Assembly (NCBI GenBank): GCA_038250345.1 | Contig: JBBSCL010000001.1 | Location: 1 to 33,074, forward strand | From: Leptolyngbyales cyanobacterium | GTDB taxonomy: Bacteria > Cyanobacteriota > Cyanobacteriia > Leptolyngbyales > Leptolyngbyaceae | DNA length: 33,074 bases | Direction: 5' to 3' | Part shown: piece by piece, positions 1,801 to 32,912 of the stretch | How positions within the stretch are numbered: the first letter of the stretch is position 1 | Layout: each line of letters opens with the position of its first letter | The notes under the pieces: model-generated | Told to the model about the DNA's origin: nothing | What the model saw: the letters and a program-made list of their open reading frames with translations, nothing else | The model's database searches: none | Program-made: the position numbers and the translations under genes

Positions 1801-2559
1801 ATGACAGAAGCAATCAGCATTGAGCAAAGTGTGGTAGACAAGCTGGATACGGCAACAGTGGATATCGTTGCTGAGTCAGCCATCTATCTGAGTTTGGGTG
1901 CGGGAGAGACTTCGGTCGATGCCACCTATCTGGCAGCAGAAGTCCCACGGCTCACAATGTTACCCGTGACGCAGTTGACCGATTTTTTGGAGCACCCAAG
2001 CGCTGGATGTGCAGTCTATCTTGAACTGGGGTTTCAGATTGACTTGACCTCCCTGATTTTGCCTGACACGATGGCAGATTGCCGTCGTGTTGCCGTGTTG
2101 CCGCCGGGACTTCGACACACGGAATGGCATGGGTGGGCGGATTTGGTCGTGACGGGGGCTGAGACTAACATCACGTTGCAACAACCTCACCTCTGGCGTT
2201 CGATTTTGACTGGACAGGTGCTTGATGCTGCCAGTCTCAACACCTTCTGGTATGAACTTATCAATGGAGCCTATGGCAATGTTCAACGTGCCAAAGGCAT
2301 TTTTGATGTCGCCGATGGGCGGGCACTTTATTTTGACTTTGCTAAAGGACTCACTGAAAGCGGCTACGTTGAACTGAATCTGCCCCGTTCGTTGAATGGC
2401 AGACCCGATCGCTTTAGTGGCATTGAAATCGTGGGTGAAGCACTGAATCAAGAAACAATGGCTCAAACACTGGAAGACTGTTGCTTGGATGATCAAGCGA
2501 TCGCTTACTATCACCAACAAATCAAGGACCTATTAGAAACAGGAGATGAAGCGGAATGA
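1801..2559 (+). CDS. CobW C-terminal-domain protein (atypical G3E/COG0523 relative); N-terminus possibly damaged
   Basis: FWYELINGAYGNVQRAKGIF resembles CobW_C RxKG, with LEDCCL near the end. No in-frame P-loop. Overlaps the next gene by ATGA. Confidence 0.65.
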   Translation: MTEAISIEQSVVDKLDTATVDIVAESAIYLSLGAGETSVDATYLAAEVPRLTMLPVTQLTDFLEHPSAGCAVYLELGFQIDLTSLILPDTMADCRRVAVLPPGLRHTEWHGWADLVVTGAETNITLQQPHLWRSILTGQVLDAASLNTFWYELINGAYGNVQRAKGIFDVADGRALYFDFAKGLTESGYVELNLPRSLNGRPDRFSGIEIVGEALNQETMAQTLEDCCLDDQAIAYYHQQIKDLLETGDEAE

Positions 2560-3368
2560 AAATTGCGGTCATGTCTTGCATTCACGGAAATTACGAAGCC
2601 TTGAATGCGGTGCTATCTGACATCGACAATCAAAATGCAGACAAGGTTTATTGTCTTGGTGATTTAGTGGGCTATGGACCTCATCCCAACGCTGTAGTGG
2701 AAATGATTCGTGCGCTGGATATTCCCACCTGTCAAGGATGTTGGGATGAAGACATTGTAGAAGGATTGAATTCGTGTGAATGTAGTTATCCCTCAGTGCT
2801 GGCAGAAAAGCGTGGCAAGCTAGCCCATGAATGGACAAATCAAGTCATTCATCCAGAAGTCCGAGAGTTTTTGGCGCACTTACCGCTGAGTTTGCGCGAT
2901 GACAATCTGTGTTTTGTGCATGGCAGCCCCCATAATCAGCACGAATATCTGCTGCCAGAAGTGGATGCATTTGTGGCGATGGAACGAGTGTTATCTACAG
3001 GTGCTGATATTTTGTTTTGTGGTCATACTCATGTGCCTTATGTGCGATCGCTCGATGCGGGTCAACTCCAGATTCGTGTCAAATCGACGGACAAATCTGA
3101 AAGTGATATGAGTTTTTCTGCACCCCTAAAACGAATTGTGAATGCTGGATCAGTGGGTGAACCGCGTCATGGCAGACCGAATGCAACTTATGTTATCTAC
3201 AACACTGAGACAGATCAAATCACGCTGCGCGAAGTGGAATACGACTATCAAAAAACCTGTGCTGCCATCATTGAAAATGGTTTGCCTCCGATCTTCGCAT
3301 GGCGTTTAGCTAGGGGACTGGAGTTTGCCGAACGCGCCGATGATCCAACCCATGTATGTGAACGATAG
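2556..3368 (+). CDS. Metallophosphoesterase (calcineurin-like, YfcE-type) with Cys-substituted motifs
   Basis: Motifs SCIHGN, LGDLVGYGP, QGCWD, VHGSP, CGHTHVP and NAGSVGEPR. Confidence 0.9.
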   Translation: MKIAVMSCIHGNYEALNAVLSDIDNQNADKVYCLGDLVGYGPHPNAVVEMIRALDIPTCQGCWDEDIVEGLNSCECSYPSVLAEKRGKLAHEWTNQVIHPEVREFLAHLPLSLRDDNLCFVHGSPHNQHEYLLPEVDAFVAMERVLSTGADILFCGHTHVPYVRSLDAGQLQIRVKSTDKSESDMSFSAPLKRIVNAGSVGEPRHGRPNATYVIYNTETDQITLREVEYDYQKTCAAIIENGLPPIFAWRLARGLEFAERADDPTHVCER

Positions 3369-4114: not shown

Positions 4115-4855
4115 ATGATCTGGGCAGTTTTGAGCGGAATTGAAGGCAATTTAGCCGCGTATGAAGCGGTGTTAGCAGACATCAAACGTCAGCGGCAACT
4201 TGTAGAAGAACTCTATATTTTGGGTGATGTGATTGCACCCATCTCGGAAAGTGAAAAGGTGATTCAGCGAGTGCGATCGCCTCAACCATATGAACCTAAG
4301 CCACAAGTTTGTCAAGGTTGGTGGGAAGAACAGTTGCTGATTTTGCATGGATTGGGACGAACGGGAGAACCGACCGAACTCATCGAACGCTATGGCATGA
4401 CAATGGTGAAAACCTTGTGGGATGCGATTTCACGCGAGATGGTTGAGTGGGTGCGATCGCTCGACTTCGGTTTATTTGAACTCGATTGCCTGTTGATTCA
4501 TGGAAGTAGTGTCAGCGTTAGTGATGAGTTAACGCCAGATACGCCCCCGATTCAAATGCTCGATCGCCTCGTGCGAATGGATGCAAACACACTTTTTTGT
4601 GGTCGTTCGGGTTTGACGTTTCAATACGAAATTCAGCAGGGCGCGGTTACATCCAGTGTCACCACCTTAGATCAGGTAGCCCCACCACAAGCGATCGCGG
4701 CTAAACCGCGACAGGTGATTGGCGTGGGTAATGTGGGGCGGATTCCTGGACAGGCAACTTATACGCTCTACAACCCTAACTCCAATCAGGTCGAATTTAG
4801 AACCGTGCGGTATGGCTCAGGAAAGGGCTTTCAGCACACTAGCCAAAATAAGTAA
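4115..4855 (+). CDS. Degenerate metallophosphoesterase-fold protein
   Basis: Collinear with 2556-3368, but metal motifs are altered: SGIEGN, LGDVI, QGWWE, IHGSS, CGRSG, GVGNVG. ATG at 4115 preferred over TTG 4076. Confidence 0.8.
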   Translation: MIWAVLSGIEGNLAAYEAVLADIKRQRQLVEELYILGDVIAPISESEKVIQRVRSPQPYEPKPQVCQGWWEEQLLILHGLGRTGEPTELIERYGMTMVKTLWDAISREMVEWVRSLDFGLFELDCLLIHGSSVSVSDELTPDTPPIQMLDRLVRMDANTLFCGRSGLTFQYEIQQGAVTSSVTTLDQVAPPQAIAAKPRQVIGVGNVGRIPGQATYTLYNPNSNQVEFRTVRYGSGKGFQHTSQNK

Positions 4856-5306: not shown

Positions 5307-6377
<1,071 letters not shown>

Positions 6378-9169: not shown

Positions 9170-9207
9170 GAAAGACTGCCCATCCCGATCGCAACTGGGC
9201 AACTTTC
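9170..9207. terminator. Imperfect hairpin between the convergent znuA genes
   Basis: GAAAGACTGCCCA-N13-TGGGCAACTTTC inverted repeat. Confidence 0.4.
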
Positions 9208-10191
9208 ATTGCAGGGGCGTGTACTTTCCACCTAAGCCTTCGACGATCGCCCTGGTATTGGCAATCAACATTTTGGGATAGGTGCTGGCTTCGCTGCCTG
9301 CTGTGCCAATGCCGTCAGCGTAAAGCTTGCGTGGGCTGACCTTCACCTTTGCTTCTTTTGCCACAGTCGTGATCAACTTCGGATTCACACTTGCCTCAGC
9401 AAAAATGGTGGACACTCCCAATGTTTTGATTTCTCTCACCAAGGTTGCAACCCGAAACGCTGTTGGTCGTTCCTCTGTGCTAATGCCTTGCAGCGTCGGC
9501 GCTAATCCTAAATTATAAGTGCGCGCGCGTAGTATTCAAAGGCATCATGGGTACTGATAATCCAACGCTGTTTGAAGGGAATAGTTTGAATCTGCGATCG
9601 AATCCAGGTATGAATTTGGGTCAGTTCATTAGTGAGTTTTTTGGCGTTGGCTTGATAGCGACTGGCTTGAGTCGGTTGTAGCTTTGTTAACTGTTGACTG
9701 ACGACTTGCACTAACTTTGCACCATTCTCAGCACTGTGAAATACGTGAGGATCTGGGGTTCCGCCACTATGACTATGTCCGCCATCGCCGTGGCTATGGG
9801 AATGTCCACCCATAATTGGGTTGGGTACTGCTACCTCGTAAACTGCTACCTTTGGTGATCGATTGGATGTGGACTGAATCAGCTTAATGAGGTCAGGTTC
9901 AAAATCGTAACCGCCATAAAGAATCAGTGCTGCGGTTTCAATCGCTTTGCGATCGCCCGGTTTAGGGGCGTAGGTGTGCGGGTCATTACCAGGGTTGAGT
10001 AAGCATTTGAGCGCGATCGTGTTTTGAGCAATGCGTTGGGTGATGTCACACAGAATACTGGTCGTGGCAACAACCGTTGGCTTGCTCTGTGCCTCTGTTT
10101 GAGGAGCCAGATAGCTGAACCATCCTGCGGTTAGCAATGGAGCGGCAATATACCAAATGCGATGTGGTTTTCTAAACCAGCGATTGAGCAT
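9206..10191 (-). pseudogene. Second ZnuA-like binding protein with His-rich loop, frameshifted at the (GC)4 tract 9521-9528
   Basis: DPHTYAP, GGHSHSHGDGGHSHSGG, DPHVFH and THDAFEYY. Removing one GC restores ARTYNLGLAPTLQGISTEERP...VREIK, joining ORF 9206-9442. Confidence 0.88.
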
Positions 10192-15170: not shown

Positions 15171-15185
15171 TGAGAATGATTATCA
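15171..15185. promoter_or_regulatory. Zur box upstream of the sufE-COG0523-folE-hisI operon
   Basis: TGAGAATGATTATCA, identical to 10219-10233. Confidence 0.9.
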
Positions 15186-15216: not shown

Positions 15217-15666
15217 ATGCCTAATCCCTCAGCCACCATTCCTCTTACCTTAGAACGGCTGGTGCAACGCTTTCAGCAGGTATCTGACCCCAAGCGAAAG
15301 TACGAGCATCTGCTCTGTCTTACCAAACGGTTGCCAGAATTTCCAGCATCCGCAAAAGTGGCAGCCAACAAAGTTATGGGCTGTGTGTCGCAAGTCTACA
15401 TCACTGCCAGATTAGAAGATGGCAAGGTTGCGTTTCAGGGCGACTCGGATGCCCAGATCACAAAAGGACTGGTGGCACTGCTGATTGAGGGACTGAACGG
15501 ATCGGCTCCGCTAGAAATCCAGCAACTCACGCCCGACTTCATCAAGATAACCGGATTTGATATCAGCCTCACGCCCTCTCGCAGTAACGGGTTTTACAAC
15601 ATTTTCCAATTTATGCAGCGCAAAGCTACGGCATGTCAGTTTGCTGATGTACCTTCATTGCATTAG
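15217..15666 (+). CDS. sufE: SufE-family sulfur acceptor
   Basis: KVMGCVSQVY, GDSDAQITKGL and LTPSRSNGF. Confidence 0.92.
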   Translation: MPNPSATIPLTLERLVQRFQQVSDPKRKYEHLLCLTKRLPEFPASAKVAANKVMGCVSQVYITARLEDGKVAFQGDSDAQITKGLVALLIEGLNGSAPLEIQQLTPDFIKITGFDISLTPSRSNGFYNIFQFMQRKATACQFADVPSLH

Positions 15667-15779
15667 GAGTAGTGGTGTATCAAACAATAGTTGATGAGTA
15701 AGGTTTTCGCGAAATGCTTTCTAAGTAACGCTTTTAGAGATATAAGCCCCATCATCTAATCATTGGAAGACCAGTAGTT

Positions 15780-16826
15780 ATGACCGATACCATTGTCCAG
15801 GTTCGTCCAGCATCCGTTACGCTTCCCAGACGAGGAATACCTGTCACAATTATCACAGGCTTTTTGGGCAGTGGTAAAACGACCCTGCTCAATCACATTT
15901 TGAGTAATCGTCAAGGCTTAAAGGTGGCGGTGATTGTGAATGAGTTTGGCGACCTTCACATCGACTCCCAATTATTAGTATCGATCGATGAAAATATGGT
16001 GCAACTGGGCAATGGCTGTATTTGCTGCACCATCAATCAGAGCTTAGTCGATACGGTATACGAATTGGTCGATCGCGATGATGCAGTGGACTACATCGTG
16101 ATTGAAACTACAGGAATTGCTGATCCATTGCCGATCATGCTGAGTTTTATTAGCACCGATCTGCAATCAGTCACGCATATTGACTCGATTCTGACGGTGA
16201 TTGATGCAGAATCCTTCACGCCGAATCACTACGACAGCGAAGCTGCACTGAACCAGTTGATTTATGGTGACATTATCTTACTGAACAAAATCGATCTGGT
16301 CACACCCGATCGCGTTGACGAATTAGAAACCTATATTCGCTCCATCAAGCCGGGTGCCAGGGTGATTCAGACCCAGCATGGACAAGTACCATTGCCGTTG
16401 ATTTTAGATGTCGGATTTAATGACTCTAATTCCTATCTCAATCTCTCTCAAGCCGACCATCCAAGCCATCATGAGCATCATTCTCACCATTTACAGAATG
16501 ATGGATTTATGACAGTTTCCTTTGAGAGCGATTCGCTTCCAGAGAGGCTTCGCCAACGCCCCTTTGACTTGCCCAAATTTCAAACCTTCCTCGACAATCT
16601 ACCCTCGAATATTTACCGTGCGAAGGGAATTCTCTGGTTTCAGGGCAGCCAATTACGTCATGTGTTTCAACTGAGTGGCAAGCGGTGTGATTTAAAGGGC
16701 GTTCATGCAATGTCTCTGCAAGCGAATCGTTCACAACCACCAGATTGTAACCAACTCGTGTTTATTGGACGAAACTTGAATGCCCTCGAAATTGAGCAGC
16801 AATTAACTAACTGTATTGCGATTTAG
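15780..16826 (+). CDS. COG0523 (CobW/ZigA-type) G3E GTPase no. 1
   Basis: [26 protein letters not shown], a short His tract and RAKG. Confidence 0.95.
   Translation: MTDTIVQVRPASVTLPRRGIPVTIITGFLGSGKTTLLNHILSNRQGLKVAVIVNEFGDLHIDSQLLVSIDENMVQLGNGCICCTINQSLVDTVYELVDRDDAVDYIVIETTGIADPLPIMLSFISTDLQSVTHIDSILTVIDAESFTPNHYDSEAALNQLIYGDIILLNKIDLVTPDRVDELETYIRSIKPGARVIQTQHGQVPLPLILDVGFNDSNSYLNLSQADHPSHHEHHSHHLQNDGFMTVSFESDSLPERLRQRPFDLPKFQTFLDNLPSNIYRAKGILWFQGSQLRHVFQLSGKRCDLKGVHAMSLQANRSQPPDCNQLVFIGRNLNALEIEQQLTNCIAI
16533..16556. mobile_element. 24-nt small dispersed repeat inserted in a HIP1 site
   Basis: GCGAT[TCGCTTCCAGAGAGGCTTCGCCAA]CGC. Both paralogues have an intact GCGATCGC (SDRP) here. Confidence 0.8.
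16695..16718. repeat. Second 24-nt in-frame insertion, degenerate REP-like palindrome
   Basis: AAGGGCGTTCATGCAATGTCTCTG adds 8 aa (KGVHAMSL) relative to both paralogues. Confidence 0.5.
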
Positions 16827-16854
16827 CATCAACATTTTTAACTGAGGAATCAAT

Positions 16855-17934
16855 ATGACGAGCACCTTGACTGAAACTACTACCGCCTCTCTAGAAATTC
16901 CTAAACGAGGAATGCCTGTCACCATCATCACGGGCTTTTTGGGTAGTGGTAAAACGACATTGCTGAATCACATTTTGAGCGATCGTCAAAATCTAAAAGT
17001 TGCGGTCTTAGTCAATGAGTTTGGTGACATTAATATCGACAGTCAGTTACTCGTGTCGATGGATGAAGATATGGTAGAACTCAGCAATGGCTGCATTTGC
17101 TGCACCATTAATGATGGGTTGGTGGATGCCGTTTATCGAGTGCTGGAACGAGATGATCAGGTCGATTACATGGTGATTGAAACGACCGGAGTGGCTGATC
17201 CGCTGCCGATTATTCTGACGTTTTTAGGAACGGAACTGCGGGATATGACTCGGTTGGATTCGATCGTCACGATGGTCGATTCTGAAACTTTCACCCCCGA
17301 TCACTTCGATAGCGAAGCGGCGTTCAAACAAATTGCCTACGCCGATGTCACTATTTTGAATAAGACCGATCTAGCAGATCCAGATCAGGTTAAGAACTTA
17401 GAAGCCTATATTGGCACAGTCAAGGAAGGTGCCAGAATCCTCCATAGTCAACATGGTCAGGTGCCGTTGCCGCTAATTTTGGATGTAGGCTACAACAATC
17501 CAGAAGCCTATGCCGATTTAGTCCAGGAAGAGATTGAGCAATCTCAGCAGGATCATCCGCATACAGAACATCACCACGAGCATGATGATCACCATCATCA
17601 CGATGATCATCATGCTCACGAACATCACCACCATCACTCTGATCATCTGGACAATGATGGGTTTGTGTCGATCTCCTTTGAGAGCGATCGCCCCTTTAAT
17701 GTGAAAAAGTTTGAGACCTTCTTACAAGAACATTTGCCCAAGGAAGTCTTCCGGGCAAAAGGCATTCTCTGGTTTAGCGAAAGTGACCTACGCAACGTCT
17801 TTCAACTCAGCGGTCCTCGTTTTGACTTGCAAGGAGAAGAATGGCGAACTTCTCCTAAGAACCAGCTTGTCTTTATCGGGCGTAACCTGAATGCTGATGA
17901 ACTGCGGCAGCATCTAGCAAATTGTCTCGCCTGA
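16855..17934 (+). CDS. COG0523 G3E GTPase no. 2 with long His-rich linker
   Basis: [18 protein letters not shown] and the linker DHPHTEHHHEHDDHHHHDDHHAHEHHHHHSDH. Confidence 0.96.
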   Translation: MTSTLTETTTASLEIPKRGMPVTIITGFLGSGKTTLLNHILSDRQNLKVAVLVNEFGDINIDSQLLVSMDEDMVELSNGCICCTINDGLVDAVYRVLERDDQVDYMVIETTGVADPLPIILTFLGTELRDMTRLDSIVTMVDSETFTPDHFDSEAAFKQIAYADVTILNKTDLADPDQVKNLEAYIGTVKEGARILHSQHGQVPLPLILDVGYNNPEAYADLVQEEIEQSQQDHPHTEHHHEHDDHHHHDDHHAHEHHHHHSDHLDNDGFVSISFESDRPFNVKKFETFLQEHLPKEVFRAKGILWFSESDLRNVFQLSGPRFDLQGEEWRTSPKNQLVFIGRNLNADELRQHLANCLA

Positions 17935-18030
17935 TCCATCGTCTTACAGCAGTTCAGTCGTCTGTTGAAAGGAGGGACATACCGCGTGCCCTATTTCTAC
18001 GGCTGATGATCACTTAACCCAAATTCACTC

Positions 18031-18669
18031 ATGACTCTATCAATCTCACCCGACGATATCCGCAAGCAACTGATCAGCACTGAAGCTAAATCCCCCGTTT
18101 CTGAAGCAGAAATGCAGCAAGCCGTTCGCACCTTGCTGCTCGGCATGGGTGAAGACCCCGATCGCGAAGGACTACGCGATACGCCCAAACGGGTGGTCAA
18201 AGCCCTCAAATTCCTCACCTCTGGCTATCAGCAATCGCTGGATGAATTGCTCAACGGAGCCGTATTCCATGAAGATGCCAGCGAAATGGTGCTAGTGCGC
18301 GACATTGATCTGTTCAGCTCCTGCGAACACCATATTCTTCCCATCATTGGACGTGCCCATGTTGCCTATATTCCAAACGGCAAGGTGATCGGCTTATCCA
18401 AAATTGCCCGGATTTGTGAGATGTATGCCCGTCGCTTGCAGGTGCAGGAACGGTTGACTCATCAAATTGCTGAAGCCCTGCAAGGCTTGCTCAAACCTCA
18501 AGGTGTGGCGGTGGTGATTGAAGCCACTCACATGTGTATGGTCATGCGCGGTGTTCAGAAACCCGGTTCTTGGACGGTGACGAGTTCGATGAAAGGGGCA
18601 TTTGCCGATGATGCTCGTACTCGCCAAGAGTTTATGAGCCTAATTCGCCACACACCAGCGTTTCATTAA
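18031..18669 (+). CDS. folE: GTP cyclohydrolase IA
   Basis: [31 protein letters not shown] and HMCMVMRGV. Confidence 0.96.
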
Positions 18670-18670
18670 G

Positions 18671-18772
18671 GAGTAGATGGGTGGAGGGTAGATGGGTCAC
18701 TCATCCAATCATCCGCACTTCACTCCTCTGCTCATCCACACTTCCACCCATCCACTTCCCTACTCTCTCCCC
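18671..18772. repeat. Purine/pyrimidine mirror short tandem repeats (STRR-like hairpin)
   Basis: GTAGATGGGT occurs twice, followed by complementary CATCCA/CACTTC units. Confidence 0.55.
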
Positions 18773-18778
18773 TGATTC

Positions 18779-19741
18779 ATGTTTGATCTCTTAAGTTCTG
18801 ACACTAAACTTCCTGTAACAATCATTACGGGCTTTTTAGGCAGCGGTAAAACCACGCTGTTGAACCACATTCTGCAAAACTTTGAGCACTACAAAGTAGC
18901 TGTTTTAGTCAATGAGTTTGGCGATATTAACATTGACAGTCAGTTCTTGATTGCCGTTGAGGAAGACATGATTGAACTGACGAATGGCTGCATCTGCTGC
19001 ACCATCAATGATAATTTAGCGGATGCTATCTATCGAGTGTTGGAGCGTCAAGACCGGATTGATTATCTGATCGTTGAAACAACAGGGGTTGCCGATCCGT
19101 TACCCATTGCCTTAACGTTTTTAGGCACAGAGTTGCGAAATTTAACTCATTTGGATGCGATTTTGACGGTGGTTGATGTTGAGACGTTCACTCCAGCACA
19201 CTATTTTAGTAGTGCTGCCATGAGCCAGATTACCTATAGCGATATTATCCTATTCAATAAAACAGATTTGGTTCCTGATGTGGAAGTAGCCGCATTGGAA
19301 AATAATATCCGCTCGATTAAAGAAAACGCCAGAATTTTGCGCTCTGAATATGGCAGGGTGCCGCTCTCGTTGATTCTAGATGTCAATCTTGCTGAATTAG
19401 GTTCTGCCGTGGAAACGCTAACAGCACCCGCACCCAATGCCAAACATCTCAATCATGATGGGTTTATGTCGGTATCATTCCAGAGCGATCGCCCCCTAGC
19501 CATCAAAAAATTTCAACAGTTCCTCGATCATCGGCTTCCCGACACTGTGTTTCGGGCAAAGGGCATTCTCTGGTTTGTCGAAAGTCCTAAACGCCATTTA
19601 TTTCAACTCAGCGGTAAGCGCTTCACCCTTGACGATAGTGAGTGGACGACTGCTCCCAAAAATCAGATAGTATTGATTGGGCGCAAATTAGATTCACTCT
19701 TTCTCATTCAAAGTTTGAATAATTGTCTTACCCGGTCATGA
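18779..19741 (+). CDS. COG0523 G3E GTPase no. 3, lacking a His tract
   Basis: [18 protein letters not shown] and FRAKG. Confidence 0.95.
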
Positions 19742-20091
19742 CGATGAACCAGAATCTACTTTGGATCGAACAATTGAGATTTAATAAGATGGGATTGATT
19801 CCAGCTATCGCTCAAGACCATCAAGACAATGCCGTGCTGATGATGGCATGGATGAACCGCGAAGCAATTCAGAGAACATTAGAAACAGGTGAGGCACACT
19901 ACTGGAGCCGATCGCGCGCTGAACTTTGGCACAAAGGTGAAACGTCTGGACACATTCAAAAAGTTAAAGCGTTTTACTACGACTGTGATGCGGATACGCT
20001 TCTGTTGAAGATTGAGCAAGTGGGTCATATTGCCTGTCACACTGGAGTCAGAAGTTGTTTTTTCAATACTGTTCAACTCGCTAAAGCGTGA
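19738..20091 (+). CDS. hisI: Phosphoribosyl-AMP cyclohydrolase (stand-alone)
   Basis: [20 protein letters not shown] and ACHTG..SCF. ATGA overlap with the upstream stop. Confidence 0.95.
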
Positions 20092-20143: not shown

Positions 20144-21097
20144 TCATCTTTCCTTCAAATGTTTGATAACCATCTCACTGCCGCGCTGTCGCGTTTTAGG
20201 ATTAATGCCGAACAAGCGGATATATTGATCAGGCTGTTCATGCAGACAATCTTCAATAACAGCGATCGCCTCCGCCTCGCGAGTTGTTTTAATTAATCCA
20301 CAATCAGACCAGGAATTTGCTCGAAATCGCCTGGCATCCGCCTGTTCTACTCCAATGTGGTATCCCTGGTTTAGCAGTCTGCGAATCCAGGCTAACGCTT
20401 CAGGGTTTAAAGGCAAAGAGGATCGATGACCGTTGCTAGATCCATTACTTTGCGAACGATCAGAGTGTCCATTTGATTCATCTCGGATTGCGGCAATACA
20501 CACATTATCATCAGCGCACAGGTATCCCTGCCGAAGTTTTTGATTAACGCTGATCACATGACGGGCAAACGTTGAATCTATTTCTTGAACATCGGGTAAG
20601 CGATCGGCTTGTTGCTGATAGGTAATCACTGATCCGGAAGCCACGTATTTACCTGCCGGAATTTCGACATTCTCAATCAAGGCATGGGACATGACAATAC
20701 AGCCATCCCCAACACTGGCGTTGAATACCGTGGAGCGGAAGCCAATAAAGCAGCCGTTCCCCACATAAGCCGGCCCATGAATGAGCGCCATGTGTGTAAT
20801 GGAGGCATTGTCACTAATCCAAACAGAGTAAGGTTCACCATCATTTCCAGTGACTCGCCCCTGCTCCAAGCCATGAATCACCGCACCATCCTGAATATTC
20901 ACATTTGACCCAATGTAGAATGGCATCCCCTCATCTGCCCGAATCGAGACCCCCGGCGCGATGTGAACCTGCGCCCCAATTCGCACATCGCCAATCACGT
21001 TGGTCAGCGAGTGAATGTAGACGCTTGCATCGATCGCTGGCTCAATAAGCTGTTGTGACCAGGGTGTTGGCGGAGCAGGAATACTGTGGCTGTCCAT
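20144..21097 (-). CDS. CcmM-like gamma-carbonic anhydrase with one RbcS-like domain
   Basis: N-terminus [41 protein letters not shown] and CADDNVC. One C-terminal repeat ([22 protein letters not shown]...YIRLFGI). ATG 21097 chosen. Confidence 0.88.
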
Positions 21098-21104
21098 GCT
21101 AAAA

Positions 21105-21125
21105 TGAGAATGATAATCATTCTGC
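21105..21125. promoter_or_regulatory. Overlapping Zur boxes (carbonic anhydrase / cysS divergent promoter)
   Basis: TGAGAATGATAATCA (21105-21119) overlaps TGATAATCATTCT (from 21111). Confidence 0.85.
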
Positions 21126-21172
21126 ATGATAGCTGCAAACGTTACCCGAAAACTAACAGCCTTAATTTTGCT

Positions 21173-23737: not shown

Positions 23738-23752
23738 TGATTATCATTATCA
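23738..23752. promoter_or_regulatory. Zur box upstream of the flavoprotein / FeoB-like pair
   Basis: TGATTATCATTATCA (1 mismatch), overlapping AGAATGATTATCA. Confidence 0.87.
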
Positions 23753-23775: not shown

Positions 23776-24894
23776 ATGAAAAAGCCGGAAGCGTTTGATG
23801 TCATTGTCGTCGGTGCCGGTGCGGCGGGGATTGGAGTTGGAGTTGTGTTGCAAGACTTGGGTCTGGAAAATTTTGCCATCTTGGAACGGCATCAGATCGG
23901 CGAGTCCTTCCGACGCTGGCCCCAGGAGATGCACTTTATCACCCCATCCTTTCCCAGCCACGGCTTTGGGCATCTCGACTTGAATGCGATCGCCCGTAAA
24001 ACCTCCCCTGCGATCAGCTTCCGACGAGAACACCTGAGTGGTACGCAATACGCCCAGTATCTAGAAACCGTTGCCGACTACTTCAAACTGCCCGTCTACA
24101 CAGGCGTTGCAGTCCAGAACGTTGAACCCTTACCCCAGCATCAAGGGTTTCTGCTTCACGTCCCCGATGGCATTCTCAAAACCCGGTTTTTAATTTGGGC
24201 AGCGGGTGAGTTTCAGTATCCTAACCTGACTCCTTTTCCGGGTGCAGATTTATGTCTGCATAACTCCCAAGTGTCTTCCTGGACAGAACTTCAAGGAGAT
24301 GAATTTGTCGTGATTGGCGGGTATGAAAGTGGTATGGATGCAGCAGCGAATCTAGTGGCGCTGGGGAAAAAAGTTAAGGTGTTAGACCGGGCTGGAACCT
24401 GGGCAAACCCAGATTCTGACCCCAGTATTTCTCTGTCTCCTTACACGCAGCAACGAATCGAGTTGTGTTATTCCACTGGGCGATTAGAACTGATTGGGAA
24501 TGTGGCGATCGAAAATGTGCAGGTAGTTCCGGGCGGTTACGCTGTTTACAGCGAATACAACAAGTGGGTGACATCCACTCAACCTATCCTCTGCACTGGG
24601 TTTGAGGGCAGCTTGAAGCAAATCGCCCCGCTGTTTAATTGGTCTGAAGGCTATGCCAGACTAACTGATGAAGATGAATCCACCTTGACCTCTGGATTGT
24701 TTGTTGTGGGTTCTTCGGTGCGTCATGACAATGTGATCTTTTGTTTTATCTACAAGTTTCGTCAACGCTTTGCAGTGGTGGCAAATGCGATCGCCCATCG
24801 TCTTGGCATCGATACGACACCTCTAGAAATCTATCGTCAGGAGGGCATGTTTCTCGACGACCTTTCCTGCTGCGAGAACGACTGCATCTGCTGA
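23776..24894 (+). CDS. NAD(P)/FAD-dependent oxidoreductase (CzcO/FMO-like) with Cys-rich tail
   Basis: VVGAGAAG, WAAGEF, IGGYESGMD and CTGF, ending in DDLSCCENDCIC. Confidence 0.88.
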   Translation: MKKPEAFDVIVVGAGAAGIGVGVVLQDLGLENFAILERHQIGESFRRWPQEMHFITPSFPSHGFGHLDLNAIARKTSPAISFRREHLSGTQYAQYLETVADYFKLPVYTGVAVQNVEPLPQHQGFLLHVPDGILKTRFLIWAAGEFQYPNLTPFPGADLCLHNSQVSSWTELQGDEFVVIGGYESGMDAAANLVALGKKVKVLDRAGTWANPDSDPSISLSPYTQQRIELCYSTGRLELIGNVAIENVQVVPGGYAVYSEYNKWVTSTQPILCTGFEGSLKQIAPLFNWSEGYARLTDEDESTLTSGLFVVGSSVRHDNVIFCFIYKFRQRFAVVANAIAHRLGIDTTPLEIYRQEGMFLDDLSCCENDCIC

Positions 24895-24898
24895 AGCA

Positions 24899-24922
24899 AT
24901 TTTAGATTTTAGATTTTGGATT
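24899..24922. repeat. Heptamer STRR (ATTTTRG)
   Basis: TTTTAGA TTTTAGA TTTTGGA. Confidence 0.6.
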
Positions 24923-24930
24923 AATCCCCC

Positions 24931-26580
24931 ATGCCCCTCCTTAGCCCTTCTACCCAACGCTCGATCGTCCTGATCGGCAAAGAAAGCACCGGTAAGTCTC
25001 AACTGATTGCCTCCCTGACTGGACATTCTCCCTACAGCACCAACTTTCGCGGCTCAACCGTTGACTGCGAAACCTATGCCGGAGATGGGGTTACTTTTGT
25101 GGATACTCCCGGCATCTTGTATCGTTCTGACACTGCCACAACACGAGTCGCACTGGAACAATTGCAGGCATATGACACGGTGTTGCTGGTGGTCAAAGCC
25201 ACTCATGTCGATGAAGACCTAGCGGATTTGTTGCCTTTAGTGGTGGGTAAGCGGGGCATCGTTGTCATCCCGTTTTGGGACAAAGTTGCACCCTCAGATT
25301 TTACATGTCAGGTGATCCGACGCTGGGAACAGACCTCCAATCTAGCGTTTGTTCCAGTCGATGCGAGACATCTGACCGCCGCGCAGCGTGACGAAATTTT
25401 AGCGGCAATGCATGAGCCGTCAGTTTTTCCCAGTCAATGGCAACCCACGCCTGCGGGTTGGATCATTGAACCCCGTCCCACATTGTTGGAGCATCCCCAC
25501 GTTGGCTGGCTGTTGGCGATCGCCCTACTGCTGCTCCCTGCCATCCTGGCTGTCTGGTCTGCCAATAGCTTTGCGGCGTTTGCCGATCCGCTGGTTCAGG
25601 GATTGGTCAAACCAACCCTAGAAGCCCTCTCTGGCTTGCCGCCCTTACTCAAAGAGATCCTGATTGGACGCTATGGATTGGTGACGATGGGACCGCTGCT
25701 GTTTGTCTGGGCAGTGCCGACAGTCATTCTCTACGCTCTGTTTCTAGGGGCTTACAAAGCCAGCGGTTTAGTCGAACGAATTACGATCGCCCTGCATCCG
25801 CTGTTGCGTCCGTTTGGCTTATCGGGGCGCGATTTGGTGCGTGTGATCATGGGTTTTGGCTGTAATGTGCCAGCCGTGATTAGTACCCGTGCTTGCTCCA
25901 GTTGTTCTCGTAAGACTTGCATTTCGGCGATTGCCTTTGGCTCAGCTTGTTCTTATCAATTGGGTGCCACGCTGGGAGTATTTAGCGCGGCAAATCTACC
26001 CTATCTGGTGATTCCCTATTTGCTTTACCTGGTCATCACAACGTTAATTTACACGGGTCTGGTTGCACCAAAAGCGGCTCGTTCTCCACAAAATACGCTG
26101 GTGATCGAACGTCGCGCCTTTCTGGAAGTTCCCCAGTGGTCAGCGATCTGGCGCGAGGCGAAGGGGACACTCAATCAGTTCTTCACCAATGCCATCCCCA
26201 TTTTCCTGATCATCACATTGATTGCTTCTATCTTCGACTGGCTGGGTGTTTTGAATGCCTTGAGCGGATTGATCAATCCGGCAATGCGGTTATTTGACCT
26301 ACCACCGGATGCAGCATTGCCTGTAATTTTGGCATCCATTCGCAAAGATGGCTTGCTGCTGTTTGCTGAACCGAACGCAGCCAGTGGATTGTCTCCGCTG
26401 CAAATCCTCACAGGCGTTTATTTAGCAGGTGTGTTGTTGCCTTGTTTAGTCACGGCGCTAACGATTGCCCGTGAACAGTCGCTCAAGTTTGCGCTGGGGT
26501 TGATGGCACGACAGGCGATCGCCGCAATCGTCTTCACCTTAGTCCTGGCTTGGGGAGGTCGTTTGCTCTGGGCAACTTGA
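24931..26580 (+). CDS. Compact FeoB-like GTPase fused to a gate-domain permease
   Basis: G1 GKESTGKS, G2 NFRGSTV and G3 DTPG. Membrane part has GFGCNVPAVISTR, CSSC, SACSY and LPCLVT. Confidence 0.85.
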   Translation: MPLLSPSTQRSIVLIGKESTGKSQLIASLTGHSPYSTNFRGSTVDCETYAGDGVTFVDTPGILYRSDTATTRVALEQLQAYDTVLLVVKATHVDEDLADLLPLVVGKRGIVVIPFWDKVAPSDFTCQVIRRWEQTSNLAFVPVDARHLTAAQRDEILAAMHEPSVFPSQWQPTPAGWIIEPRPTLLEHPHVGWLLAIALLLLPAILAVWSANSFAAFADPLVQGLVKPTLEALSGLPPLLKEILIGRYGLVTMGPLLFVWAVPTVILYALFLGAYKASGLVERITIALHPLLRPFGLSGRDLVRVIMGFGCNVPAVISTRACSSCSRKTCISAIAFGSACSYQLGATLGVFSAANLPYLVIPYLLYLVITTLIYTGLVAPKAARSPQNTLVIERRAFLEVPQWSAIWREAKGTLNQFFTNAIPIFLIITLIASIFDWLGVLNALSGLINPAMRLFDLPPDAALPVILASIRKDGLLLFAEPNAASGLSPLQILTGVYLAGVLLPCLVTALTIAREQSLKFALGLMARQAIAAIVFTLVLAWGGRLLWAT

Positions 26581-31805: not shown

Positions 31806-32912
31806 TTACGGCTGACTCAAGTAGCAGTGGCAATCGGGTTTAGCAATCAGCGATTCTGCCAAAGCATTGAGCGCGGTGGCTGCCAATAATCCACCGCCAA
31901 TCGTTCCCTCAATGGTAATGAAGGGAACTCCAGAGCGCATCAACTGACGCTTGGCGATCGGCGCATGGCTAAACCCGATCGGCATTCCTATTACTAATGC
32001 AGGCTGAATCTGCTGTTGCGAGATCGCTTTACAAACAGTCAGCAAGACCGATGGCGCATAGCCAATAACGAGAATACAGCCAGATTTACAGGCTTGCAAG
32101 CGTTCTTGCCAAAGTTGCTGCTGCCAAAATGCCTGCTCTGCCTCGTCAGCATTGGTAATATGCGGATCATCGATCAGTGTGGCAATGTCGCAGCCCAGAT
32201 GGCGCAGACGCGGTTGATCGAGCGCGCTGGTGACGGCGGGAACATCCGCCACAATTTGGCAGCCTGCTTTCAAAACCTCTCGACTGACCGCGATCGCATC
32301 CCGGCTCAACCGGACAAAAGATACCAGGCTGACATCGCCACACGCCAACACTAAGCGAGACAACAAATCGACTTCAATTTCAGAACGATCGCTTAAGTCG
32401 GGCAACAGCCAGTGCAGCGATTCCTGGAAGACTTCGGGATGCTGATGCACTTCTGTATCCATTTCATTCCACAGATGCTCAAAGCTATCCAGACTGGTTT
32501 GAGTCTCGGCTTCTAACTGTTTCAATCGGGAGATCGCTTCTGCCTGCGTTGCCTGACAGTGGCGATCGCGCCCCAACAGCCGTTCGAGTGCCGTTGCCGT
32601 ATGGCGTAACTGGGTGATCTGCTGCATCACTGTTTGGTATTGCCGATATAACTGAGTCAACAGAATTTCAGGCGTTTCGCTGGCTAAATCGGCTTCCAGC
32701 AATTTCTGAATATGCGTCAGTTGAAATCCCTGTTTCTTCAACGCCATGATGCGCTTGAGCCGTTGCACATCCTGTTGAGTGTAAAGGCGGTAATTTCCGG
32801 GCGATCGTTCTGGCTGAGGCATCAACCCCAACTGATGATAATGCCGCACCATCCGGGGAGTAATGCCTGTTCCGATCGCATCGGTTAATTCTTTAATCGT
32901 GAGAGGACTCAT
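31806..32912 (-). CDS. coaR: CoaR/CorR-like cobalt sensor: MerR HTH fused to a precorrin-8X methylmutase-like domain
   Basis: TPRMVRHYHQLGL...GNYRLY, VIGYAPS, LVIGMPIGF and a C-terminal CHC motif. Confidence 0.8.
   Translation of the reverse strand: MSPLTIKELTDAIGTGITPRMVRHYHQLGLMPQPERSPGNYRLYTQQDVQRLKRIMALKKQGFQLTHIQKLLEADLASETPEILLTQLYRQYQTVMQQITQLRHTATALERLLGRDRHCQATQAEAISRLKQLEAETQTSLDSFEHLWNEMDTEVHQHPEVFQESLHWLLPDLSDRSEIEVDLLSRLVLACGDVSLVSFVRLSRDAIAVSREVLKAGCQIVADVPAVTSALDQPRLRHLGCDIATLIDDPHITNADEAEQAFWQQQLWQERLQACKSGCILVIGYAPSVLLTVCKAISQQQIQPALVIGMPIGFSHAPIAKRQLMRSGVPFITIEGTIGGGLLAATALNALAESLIAKPDCHCYLSQP

What the first reader, a model, noticed from the sequence alone, without database searches (positions are those of the whole stretch)
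15780..20091. Three COG0523 GTPases with graded His linkers interleaved with candidate clients
Seen: the order is sufE, G1 (short His), G2 (long His), folE, G3 (no His), hisI, with G3 and hisI coupled by ATGA. All three have GCICC. FolE and HisI retain their Zn-binding Cys/His. Known: COG0523 proteins deliver Zn to clients (ZagA-FolE, ZNG1-MetAP1). Inference: dedicated chaperone-client pairs (G2-FolE, G3-HisI) or a heteromeric chaperone.
Basis: partly seen in the sequence, partly recalled or inferred. Interest (0 to 1): 0.7.

Follow-up and report, generated by a model that had tools for sequence, protein, structure and literature searches.

The report
Zinc chaperones flanking folate enzyme FolE
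A cyanobacterium packs three zinc-chaperone-type GTPases among spare copies of zinc enzymes behind a predicted zinc-repressor site; in relatives two of them often stay on either side of the folate enzyme FolE, their likely shared client, while the proposed pairing with HisI is poorly conserved.

Summary
The order is sufE, three intact COG0523 GTPases (His-linkers 7/19/2), folE and hisI. The six genes lie behind one Zur-type box (15171-15185) in an island with six such boxes and spare copies of zinc enzymes. This is a known kind of regulon (Anabaena all4722/thrS2/folE2; Haas 2009), and this scan found dense versions before on other DNA.

One chaperone per client is only half supported. G2-folE is conserved. 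G3 follows folE in 23 of 29 loci but precedes hisI in only 13 of 29. The same HisI type sits directly after folE, with no G3 found, in four genomes. The ATGA overlap occurs in 4 of 15 junctions.

The better-supported unit is His-rich GTPase, folE, His-poor GTPase: 13 of 14 doubly flanked loci have one of each. FolE is therefore the likely shared client; this is inferred from gene order only.

New here: the G2-folE spacer (17936-18014) holds a covarying, pseudoknot-like RNA element with no Rfam match, found only at this spacer or its deletion remnants.

Verdict: new variant of a known kind.

The parts
15171..15185 (+). Zur-type box TGAGAATGATTATCA, 31 nt before the sufE start; likely the operator of the six-gene unit
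   Evidence: 8 matches at 6 sites in the window, 0.06 expected; a box lies upstream of sufE in 21 of 31 related cases, G1 0/13, G3 1/56, hisI 2/28 (labels by best BLAST hit)
15217..15666 (+). sufE, second copy (housekeeping copy on contig C255, 66% identical)
15670..15777 (.). 108-bp repeated insert between sufE and G1 (relatives have gaps of about -4 to 9 nt where the start is clear)
   Evidence: 99% copy on C112; high depth and loose ends in four runs; gaps
15780..16826 (+). G1: COG0523 GTPase with a short His linker (7 His); its own clade, in sufE-G1-G2 order in all 9 relatives
16855..17934 (+). G2: COG0523 GTPase with a long His linker (19 His); sister to thrS-COG0523-folE loci whose order matches Anabaena all4722
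   Evidence: for all4722 being next to thrS2
17936..18014 (+). Candidate structured RNA in the G2-folE spacer. Stem 17944-17952/17962-17970; its loop 17955-17961 pairs with 17999-18005 (pseudoknot or switch); variable hairpin 17973-17992
   Evidence: covariation; no Rfam match; model hits only at this spacer or its remnants
18031..18669 (+). folE, zinc-dependent type IA GTP cyclohydrolase I, second copy (housekeeping copy on C160, 74% identical, no COG0523 neighbour, no Zur box)
18779..19741 (+). G3: COG0523 GTPase without a His tract; clade of 32 relatives, all without a tract
19738..20091 (+). hisI, monofunctional second copy (the housekeeping gene on C454 is the HisIE fusion); the start shared with relatives is at 19744
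21105..21119 (+). Zur-type box between the divergent gamma-carbonic-anhydrase (CcmM-like) gene and cysS copy; further boxes at 5307, 8021, 10219 and 23738 mark the rest of the island

Best explanation
The six genes are likely one Zur-repressed zinc-starvation operon whose conserved core is a His-rich and a His-poor COG0523 GTPase on either side of a spare zinc-dependent FolE, and the two GTPases likely serve FolE rather than one neighbour each. Shown: the gene order, intact motifs, the boxes, second copies of folE/hisI/sufE elsewhere in the genome, and the conservation pattern. From established knowledge: Zur releases such operons when zinc falls; COG0523 proteins bind Zn at CxCC and hydrolyse GTP with the RxKG finger of their own C-terminal domain. 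Inferred: G2 would hold spare zinc on its His tract, as Cupriavidus CobW2 is proposed to, and G2 and/or G3 would load zinc into newly made FolE before it assembles. G1 would be a later duplicate on the G2 side that travels with sufE. HisI and SufE would be co-induced back-ups, not dedicated clients. The spacer RNA likely tunes G2 versus folE expression, by mRNA processing or stability or by translation control.
For: Six Zur-type sites lie in the window against 0.06 expected matches, and 6 of 24 genome-wide hits at up to 2 mismatches lie on this 33-kb contig. In related loci the box sits before sufE (21/31) and almost never before G1 (0/13), G3 (1/56) or hisI (2/28). In a folE-anchored sample of 300 other genomes, 74 of 75 other-genome matches were mapped: COG0523 directly upstream in 41, downstream in 23, either side in 50, both in 14. 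No other gene label exceeds 12 on either side. In 13 of the 14 double cases one copy has 12 or more His per 45 aa and the other 8 or fewer, including three loci where the tract is on the downstream copy. A linker-free tree places those three loci's copies with their positional lineages, as if the tract was lost on the other side. In the G3-anchored sample folE is upstream in 23 of 29 informative rows. Housekeeping folE has no COG0523 gene on its contig. Precedents: ZagA-FolE two-hybrid signal with the Zn-dependent FolE (passages); CobW2 as a His-rich zinc store among three Zur-regulated COG0523 (passages).
Against: 24 of 74 island-type folE loci have no adjacent COG0523, so this FolE does not need a neighbouring chaperone. 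The loci are related and the island looks mobile and patchy (no match to the spacer model in 6 of 6 same-genus genomes), so counts overstate independence. COG0523 genes are multi-copy in these islands, which raises their chance of being a neighbour. The AU test does not reject a simple swap of gene order in the reversed loci (p 0.118). Only 4 conservative positions separate the G2 and G3 alignments at 85% conservation. Adjacency has misled before: ZagA binds the housekeeping FolE, not the neighbouring FolEB, and attempts to show All4722 binding its neighbour ThrRS2 failed. [quoted passage not shown]
Confidence: 0.5

Rival explanations
1. Co-regulation only: the GTPases are generalist zinc buffers or allocators, or act on other proteins such as housekeeping enzymes or the ribosome; their neighbours reflect operon history under one Zur box.
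For: The Zur boxes and paralogue content explain the clustering without contacts. 24 of 74 folE loci lack an adjacent COG0523. Few clade-specific residues separate G2 and G3. Published neighbour pairs that did not interact. The same spare enzymes cluster with COG0523 across phyla (Haas 2009).
Against: G2-folE survives with at least eight different upstream neighbours and seven different genes after folE. The His-rich plus His-poor combination recurs in 13 of 14 double loci.
Confidence: 0.35
2. One reading: dedicated pairs, G2 loads FolE and G3 loads HisI (and G1 serves SufE-linked chemistry).
For: G3-hisI spacing is tight in all 15 junctions. G3 is the upstream neighbour of 15 of 28 distinct island hisI genes. 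G1 follows sufE in 9 of 9 relatives. Six genomes with a His-poor copy after folE do carry an intact, divergent (47-49%) second hisI (G078, G154, G163, G284, G298, G277).
Against: hisI follows G3 in only 13 of 29 informative loci. Intact same-type HisI follows folE with no G3-type gene found in G216, G184, G278 and G070. Seven genomes with a His-poor copy after folE have only the housekeeping HisIE (G120, G282, G215, G304, G183, G269, G029). ATGA is found in 4 of 15 junctions. SufE is not a known zinc enzyme (recalled).
Confidence: 0.09
3. Heteromeric chaperone: G2 and G3 (or G1) form a complex or activate each other in trans through the RxKG C-terminal domain.
For: The His-rich plus His-poor combination recurs. 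The C-terminal domain can act in trans in ZigA and MigC (abstract). The paralogues are 56-65% identical.
Against: Trans rescue needed the cognate domain, and the authors argue that domain diversity prevents cross-talk. COG0523 proteins may work as monomers. 36 of the 50 flanked folE loci have only one adjacent copy.
Confidence: 0.06

Closest known systems
Anabaena/Nostoc PCC 7120 Zur regulon: hemB2, thrS2, COG0523 all4722, folE2 (PMC6103462 and PMC4787780, passages read; Napolitano 2012 not held)
   Same: Zur-type boxes; spare hemB, thrS and folE; a COG0523 gene co-transcribed with them. Loci with thrS-COG0523-folE order are the sister group of G2.
   Different: Three paralogues in one unit here, a His-poor copy after folE, plus sufE and hisI. 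I did not have the All4722 sequence, so orthology rests on gene order and the tree.
Zur-regulated COG0523 clusters with paralogues of HisI, Cam, HemB, CysRS, ThrRS and FolE (Haas et al. 2009, PMC2770081; passages and Additional File 5 read)
   Same: Same gene content. Lists folE2-yciC in Cyanothece PCC 8801/8802 and hisI2-yciC on a Klebsiella plasmid. Proposes that His-stretch versus no stretch splits metallochaperone from insertase roles.
   Different: In the parts read it does not describe folE flanked by a His-rich and a His-poor copy. Its proteobacterial folE2 is the zinc-independent isozyme, whereas this FolE is type IA with intact ligands.
Cupriavidus metallidurans CobW1/CobW2/CobW3 (PMC11340326, passages)
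   Same: Three Zur-regulated COG0523 that differ in His-rich regions; the internal His-rich one is proposed as a zinc store; one sits in an operon with spare zinc enzymes and a FolE.
   Different: The CobWs lie at separate loci, CobW3 lacks the metal motif and GTPase activity, and the operon FolE is the metal-promiscuous type IB. Here all three have intact motifs and are in one unit.
Bacillus subtilis ZagA-FolE (bioRxiv 10.1101/594382, passages)
   Same: A Zur-regulated COG0523 linked to Zn-dependent FolE.
   Different: The ZagA partner is the housekeeping FolE, not the neighbour. G1-G3 score far below the cut-off of the ZigA model (192-208 versus 600 bits), so they may work like ZagA but are not shown to be its subfamily.
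THF-II (folE motif) and ZTP riboswitches (search listing only; ZTP recalled)
   Same: A structured RNA in front of folE.
   Different: No Rfam family matched the spacer at E up to 1. The predicted fold here is a loop-tail pseudoknot with an inserted hairpin, whereas the folE motif is described as a simple architecture.

Membership tests
COG0523 G3E GTPases (G1, G2, G3) | G-domain motifs G1-G4 and CxCC | tested here: met
   [22 protein letters not shown] and NKxD in all three; PF02492 at 189-193 bits versus cut-off 20.7
COG0523 G3E GTPases (G1, G2, G3) | C-terminal CobW_C domain with RxKG | tested here: met
   PF07683 at 69-86 bits versus cut-off 22; RAKG in all three; the only solved relatives found were YjiA chains (G3 alignment)
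COG0523 G3E GTPases (G1, G2, G3) | Zn binding and Zn-stimulated GTPase activity | not testable with these tools
   needs purified protein
ZigA/ZagA (YciC) equivalog | NCBIfam NF038288 cut-off of 600 bits | tested here: not met
   192.5, 208 and 203.5 bits
CobW (cobalamin) equivalog | TIGR02475 cut-off of 332 bits | tested here: not met
   188, 184 and 180 bits; a more distant GCLCC paralogue, the likely CobW, lies on C192
Cyanobacterial Zur regulon | 7-1-7 Zur-type box upstream of the unit | tested here: met
   15171-15185; resembles the cyanobacterial sites in Haas Additional File 5; conserved before sufE in 21 of 31 cases
Cyanobacterial Zur regulon | Members are second copies of housekeeping zinc enzymes | tested here: met
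   second folE, hisI(E), sufE, cysS, thrS and ccmM elsewhere in the genome; no second hemB found in this 79% complete assembly
Cyanobacterial Zur regulon | Zur binding and induction at low zinc | not testable with these tools
   RNA runs are held only as contigs
FolE type IA (zinc-dependent) | PF01227/TIGR00063 fold with Cys-His-Cys ligands | tested here: met
Dedicated chaperone-client pair G3-HisI | Conserved adjacency and co-occurrence | tested here: not met
   13 of 29 adjacent; each partner found without the other
Dedicated chaperone-client pair G2-FolE (or G2/G3-FolE) | Conserved adjacency through reshuffling | tested here: met
   41 of 74 upstream, 50 of 74 either side; 25 of 27 and 10 of 11 by clade, partly from folE-anchored loci
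Dedicated chaperone-client pair G2-FolE (or G2/G3-FolE) | Nucleotide-dependent contact and zinc transfer | not testable with these tools
   needs pull-down and transfer assays
Known riboswitch families (THF-I, THF-II, ZTP) | Match to the Rfam covariance model | tested here: not met
   no match over the spacer at E up to 1; that these families are in Rfam 15 is recalled

The most novel reading that the evidence does not exclude
A self-contained FolE-metallation module: a His-rich COG0523 stores zinc and a His-poor one inserts it into newly made FolE. A new pseudoknot riboswitch in the G2-folE spacer senses a folate-pathway signal (for example ZTP or a pterin) and adds a second layer of control under Zur. 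This would give a bacterial Zur-regulated COG0523 a defined client, show division of labour between paralogues, and add a riboswitch class.
Probability: 0.1. Interest if true: 0.8.

Novelty: new variant of a known kind. Interest (0 to 1): 0.42.

Why it matters
[quoted passage not shown] This operon narrows the question to one testable candidate, a Zn-dependent FolE between a His-rich and a His-poor paralogue. It supplies natural controls: relatives with only one copy, and relatives with the His tract on the other copy. It would also test the 2009 idea that the His stretch separates storage from insertion. The spacer RNA is a separate, cheap test. The island itself is an ordinary kind of low-zinc regulon.

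Tried and rejected
Complex prediction: one job with G2, G3 and FolE alignments, FolE as the scored partner, returned 'no answer' (score 0.00, mark 0.32, controls not folded). It is no evidence either way. G3-HisI was not modelled.

FolE fused in frame to the G3 C-terminal domain in genome G198 looked like a gene-fusion clue. No second case appeared among the 120 listed of 8000 near-length hits or the 120 listed of 1022 longer hits, and other copies of the island show similar deletions. It is read as a one-off deletion.

Stop-codon readthrough from G2 into folE stimulated by the pseudoknot was rejected: the window has TGA TGA in frame, and spacer lengths fall in all three frames.

A three-way junction closed by the 5' AGTC is 87.5% paired but shows no two-sided change, so it has no support. 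Single-strand folding of the window's spacer is not more stable than shuffles (z 0.06 and -0.29); the program cannot form pseudoknots.

A metagenome pattern scan for the RNA gave 97 loci. 95 were rescored with the model, and 5 weak hits (21-29 bits) appeared, as expected from the pattern itself; they were not followed.

The promoter/terminator scan was at chance level (13 versus 10.2; 3 versus 5.0). RNA runs are patchy contigs and say nothing about operon structure.

Careful trees did not finish; quick or FastTree trees were used. Rows without a P-loop, under 240 aa, or identical were left out, including the frameshifted G2 of L023 and the split or truncated G3 of L069 and L071.

Napolitano 2012 was not held.
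Full report
Observation. The window is a whole 33-kb contig of a 4.1-Mb, 79% complete cyanobacterial assembly. Gene order and coordinates are as reported. G1, G2 and G3 carry all COG0523 motifs, including GCICC and the C-terminal RAKG, and pass both Pfam cut-offs. They fall short of the ZigA and CobW equivalog cut-offs. Linker His counts are 7, 19 and 2. FolE is type IA with C98/H101/C169 invariant in 61 sequences. HisI is a monofunctional copy with its three cysteines (ligand roles recalled). dN/dS is 0.03-0.22 in the 23 of 30 comparisons that could be computed. The DNA is present in other public runs. ATGA is real, but it occurs in only 4 of 15 distinct junctions; 12 of 15 have an ATG 2 or 5 nt after the stop, as the window also does.

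Six Zur-type boxes lie in the window (8 matches against 0.06 expected). They are 6 of 24 genome-wide hits at up to 2 mismatches. One lies 31 nt before sufE. In related loci a box precedes sufE in 21 of 31 cases, G2 in 10 of 62, folE in 17 of 94, G1 in 0 of 13, G3 in 1 of 56 and hisI in 2 of 28 (labels by best hit). The island also holds a Fur-family regulator, znuABC-like genes, hemB, thrS, cysS and a CcmM-like carbonic anhydrase. Second copies of folE, hisI(E), sufE, cysS, thrS and ccmM lie elsewhere. The folE, hisIE and sufE contigs carry no box and no COG0523 gene. The genome has seven full COG0523 genes plus one divergent relative. This is the low-zinc regulon described by Haas 2009 (passages; Additional File 5; one scanned supplement could not be searched). 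It is also known from Anabaena (passages) and Synechococcus PCC 7002 (passages).

Test of the pairings, anchored on G3. 32 loci came from the species collection and 19 regions from relatives. G1, G2 and G3 form separate supported clades (quick trees). In the G3 clade (31 rows with the window), folE is upstream in 23, another gene in 6, and a contig end in 2. hisI is downstream in 13, another gene in 16, and an end in 2. All 32 G3 relatives lack a His tract, G2 relatives have 8-34 linker His and G1 relatives 5-7. The grading is therefore a stable property of three lineages.

Test of the pairings, anchored on folE. 67 of 300 other genomes hold an island-type folE. I mapped 74 of the 75 other-genome matches; the one left out, G029, had been fetched earlier and reads sufE-COG0523-folE-COG0523. 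A COG0523 gene is directly upstream in 41, downstream in 23, on either side in 50, on both in 14 and on neither in 24. Other neighbours vary widely. In 13 of the 14 double cases one copy is His-rich and one His-poor; three related genomes have the tract on the downstream copy. A tree without the linker puts those copies with their positional lineages, but the AU test does not exclude a swap of order (p 0.118). For HisI, G3 is the upstream gene for 15 of 28 distinct island copies and folE for 6. Four genomes have an intact same-type HisI right after folE, with no G3-type gene found. Seven have a His-poor copy after folE and only HisIE. Against this reading, six others with a His-poor copy do carry a divergent second hisI. 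These genomes are kin and the island looks mobile, so the counts are descriptive, not statistical.

Mechanism. The most likely reading is one Zur-repressed unit whose core is His-rich GTPase, folE, His-poor GTPase, with FolE as the shared client (confidence 0.5). Regulation rests on boxes and precedent; zinc delivery is inferred from gene order alone. Precedents cut both ways. ZagA gave a two-hybrid signal with Zn-dependent FolE but not with its neighbour FolEB (passages). All4722 could not be shown to bind its neighbour ThrRS2 (passage). CobW2 is proposed to store zinc on an internal His-rich region (passages). The RxKG domain acts in trans only on its cognate protein (abstract and Discussion). 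A 2024 review knows no client for a bacterial Zur-regulated COG0523 (passages). Only four conservative positions separate the G2 and G3 alignments. Co-regulation without a dedicated client remains a strong rival (0.35); strict one-to-one pairs (0.09) and a heteromer (0.06) are weaker.

A new element. The 96-nt G2-folE spacer is conserved in a clade of these islands. A 9-bp stem has a loop that pairs with a segment about 40 nt downstream, with a variable hairpin in between, which is the layout of an H-type pseudoknot. In 22 sequences 93% of cells pair. Five of 7 loop-tail pairs show two-sided changes, 0 of 500 shuffles reach the observed cell count, and slid controls give 31-62%. I drew the structure by eye from these sequences, and they are related, so this overstates significance. 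In held-out but closely related copies the loop-tail helix forms 6-7 of 7 pairs in 7 of the 8 that the script located among 9 tried. The inner hairpin varies on both sides at all 8 pairs in a model-fitted alignment. There is no Rfam match over the spacer. A covariance model hit 9 of 151 class genomes, 9 of 90 order genomes and 4 of 17 genomes of another order (overlapping sets that include the training genomes). Every hit lay directly before folE, before a deleted remnant of it, or after G2 where folE is gone. It persists when either neighbour is lost, so I cannot say which gene it serves. An mRNA processing or stability element is more likely than a riboswitch.

Novelty. The island is a known kind, and earlier notes of this scan describe a denser one on other DNA with the same caution. 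I found no description of folE flanked by a His-rich and a His-poor COG0523, or of the spacer RNA, in searches or in the passages read; for Barnett 2012 these were passages and the first part of its COG0523 section. Napolitano 2012 could not be read, the 2021 family-wide neighbourhood survey of COG0523 (recalled) was not read, and supplements other than those of Haas 2009 were not seen; any of them may already show this gene order. Verdict: new variant of a known kind, interest 0.42.

Noticed in passing
window 17936-18014: Covarying pseudoknot-like RNA candidate in the G2-folE spacer, with no Rfam match; found only at this spacer or its deletion remnants.
   Followed up: yes
window 1801-2559 (+), with 2556-3368 and 4115-4855: CxCC-less COG0523-like protein with an RxKG C-terminal domain, followed by two metallophosphoesterase-like genes. 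All 30 homologues have a Walker A motif, but the window's copy has lost it through a degenerate 5' end, which is the same in four DNA runs. It directly follows folE in 12 of 74 loci. Earlier notes of this scan describe the module.
   Followed up: partly
L153:10022-10930 (G198:C348): FolE fused in frame to the C-terminal domain of G3 at the domain boundary; no second case found, probably a deletion.
   Followed up: yes
window 15670-15777: 108-bp repeated element inserted between sufE and G1, with a 99% copy on C112 and high depth in DNA and RNA runs.
   Followed up: partly
L036 (G000:C435:51-3033): The housekeeping cysS is divergently paired with a His-rich COG0523 of the same subfamily and no Zur box; the same pairing appears in several other genomes.
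   Followed up: partly
window 20144-21127 (-): Short CcmM-like gamma-carbonic anhydrase with a single RbcS-like domain, behind a Zur-type box shared with cysS; the full ccmM is on C342. hisI lies next to this gene in 11 of 28 distinct cases, in either orientation.
   Followed up: no
L053, L054, L086, L115: A second, divergent lineage of island HisI (45-50% identical, longer C-terminus) replaces the window's type in some islands.
   Followed up: no
window 9203-10191 (-): A second znuA-like gene is split over two frames.
   Followed up: no
window 23776-26580 (+): Flavin oxidoreductase and FeoB-like GTPase-permease behind a Zur-type box at 23738, matching the TrxB-FeoB-COG0523 context of Haas subgroup 14.
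   Followed up: no
window 31806-32912 (-): MerR-family regulator fused to a precorrin-8X methylmutase (CbiC)-like domain.
   Followed up: no
L270, L271, L276, L279: Several copies of the island are decaying by deletion around folE, and none of six same-genus genomes has the spacer element, which suggests a mobile, often lost island.
   Followed up: partly
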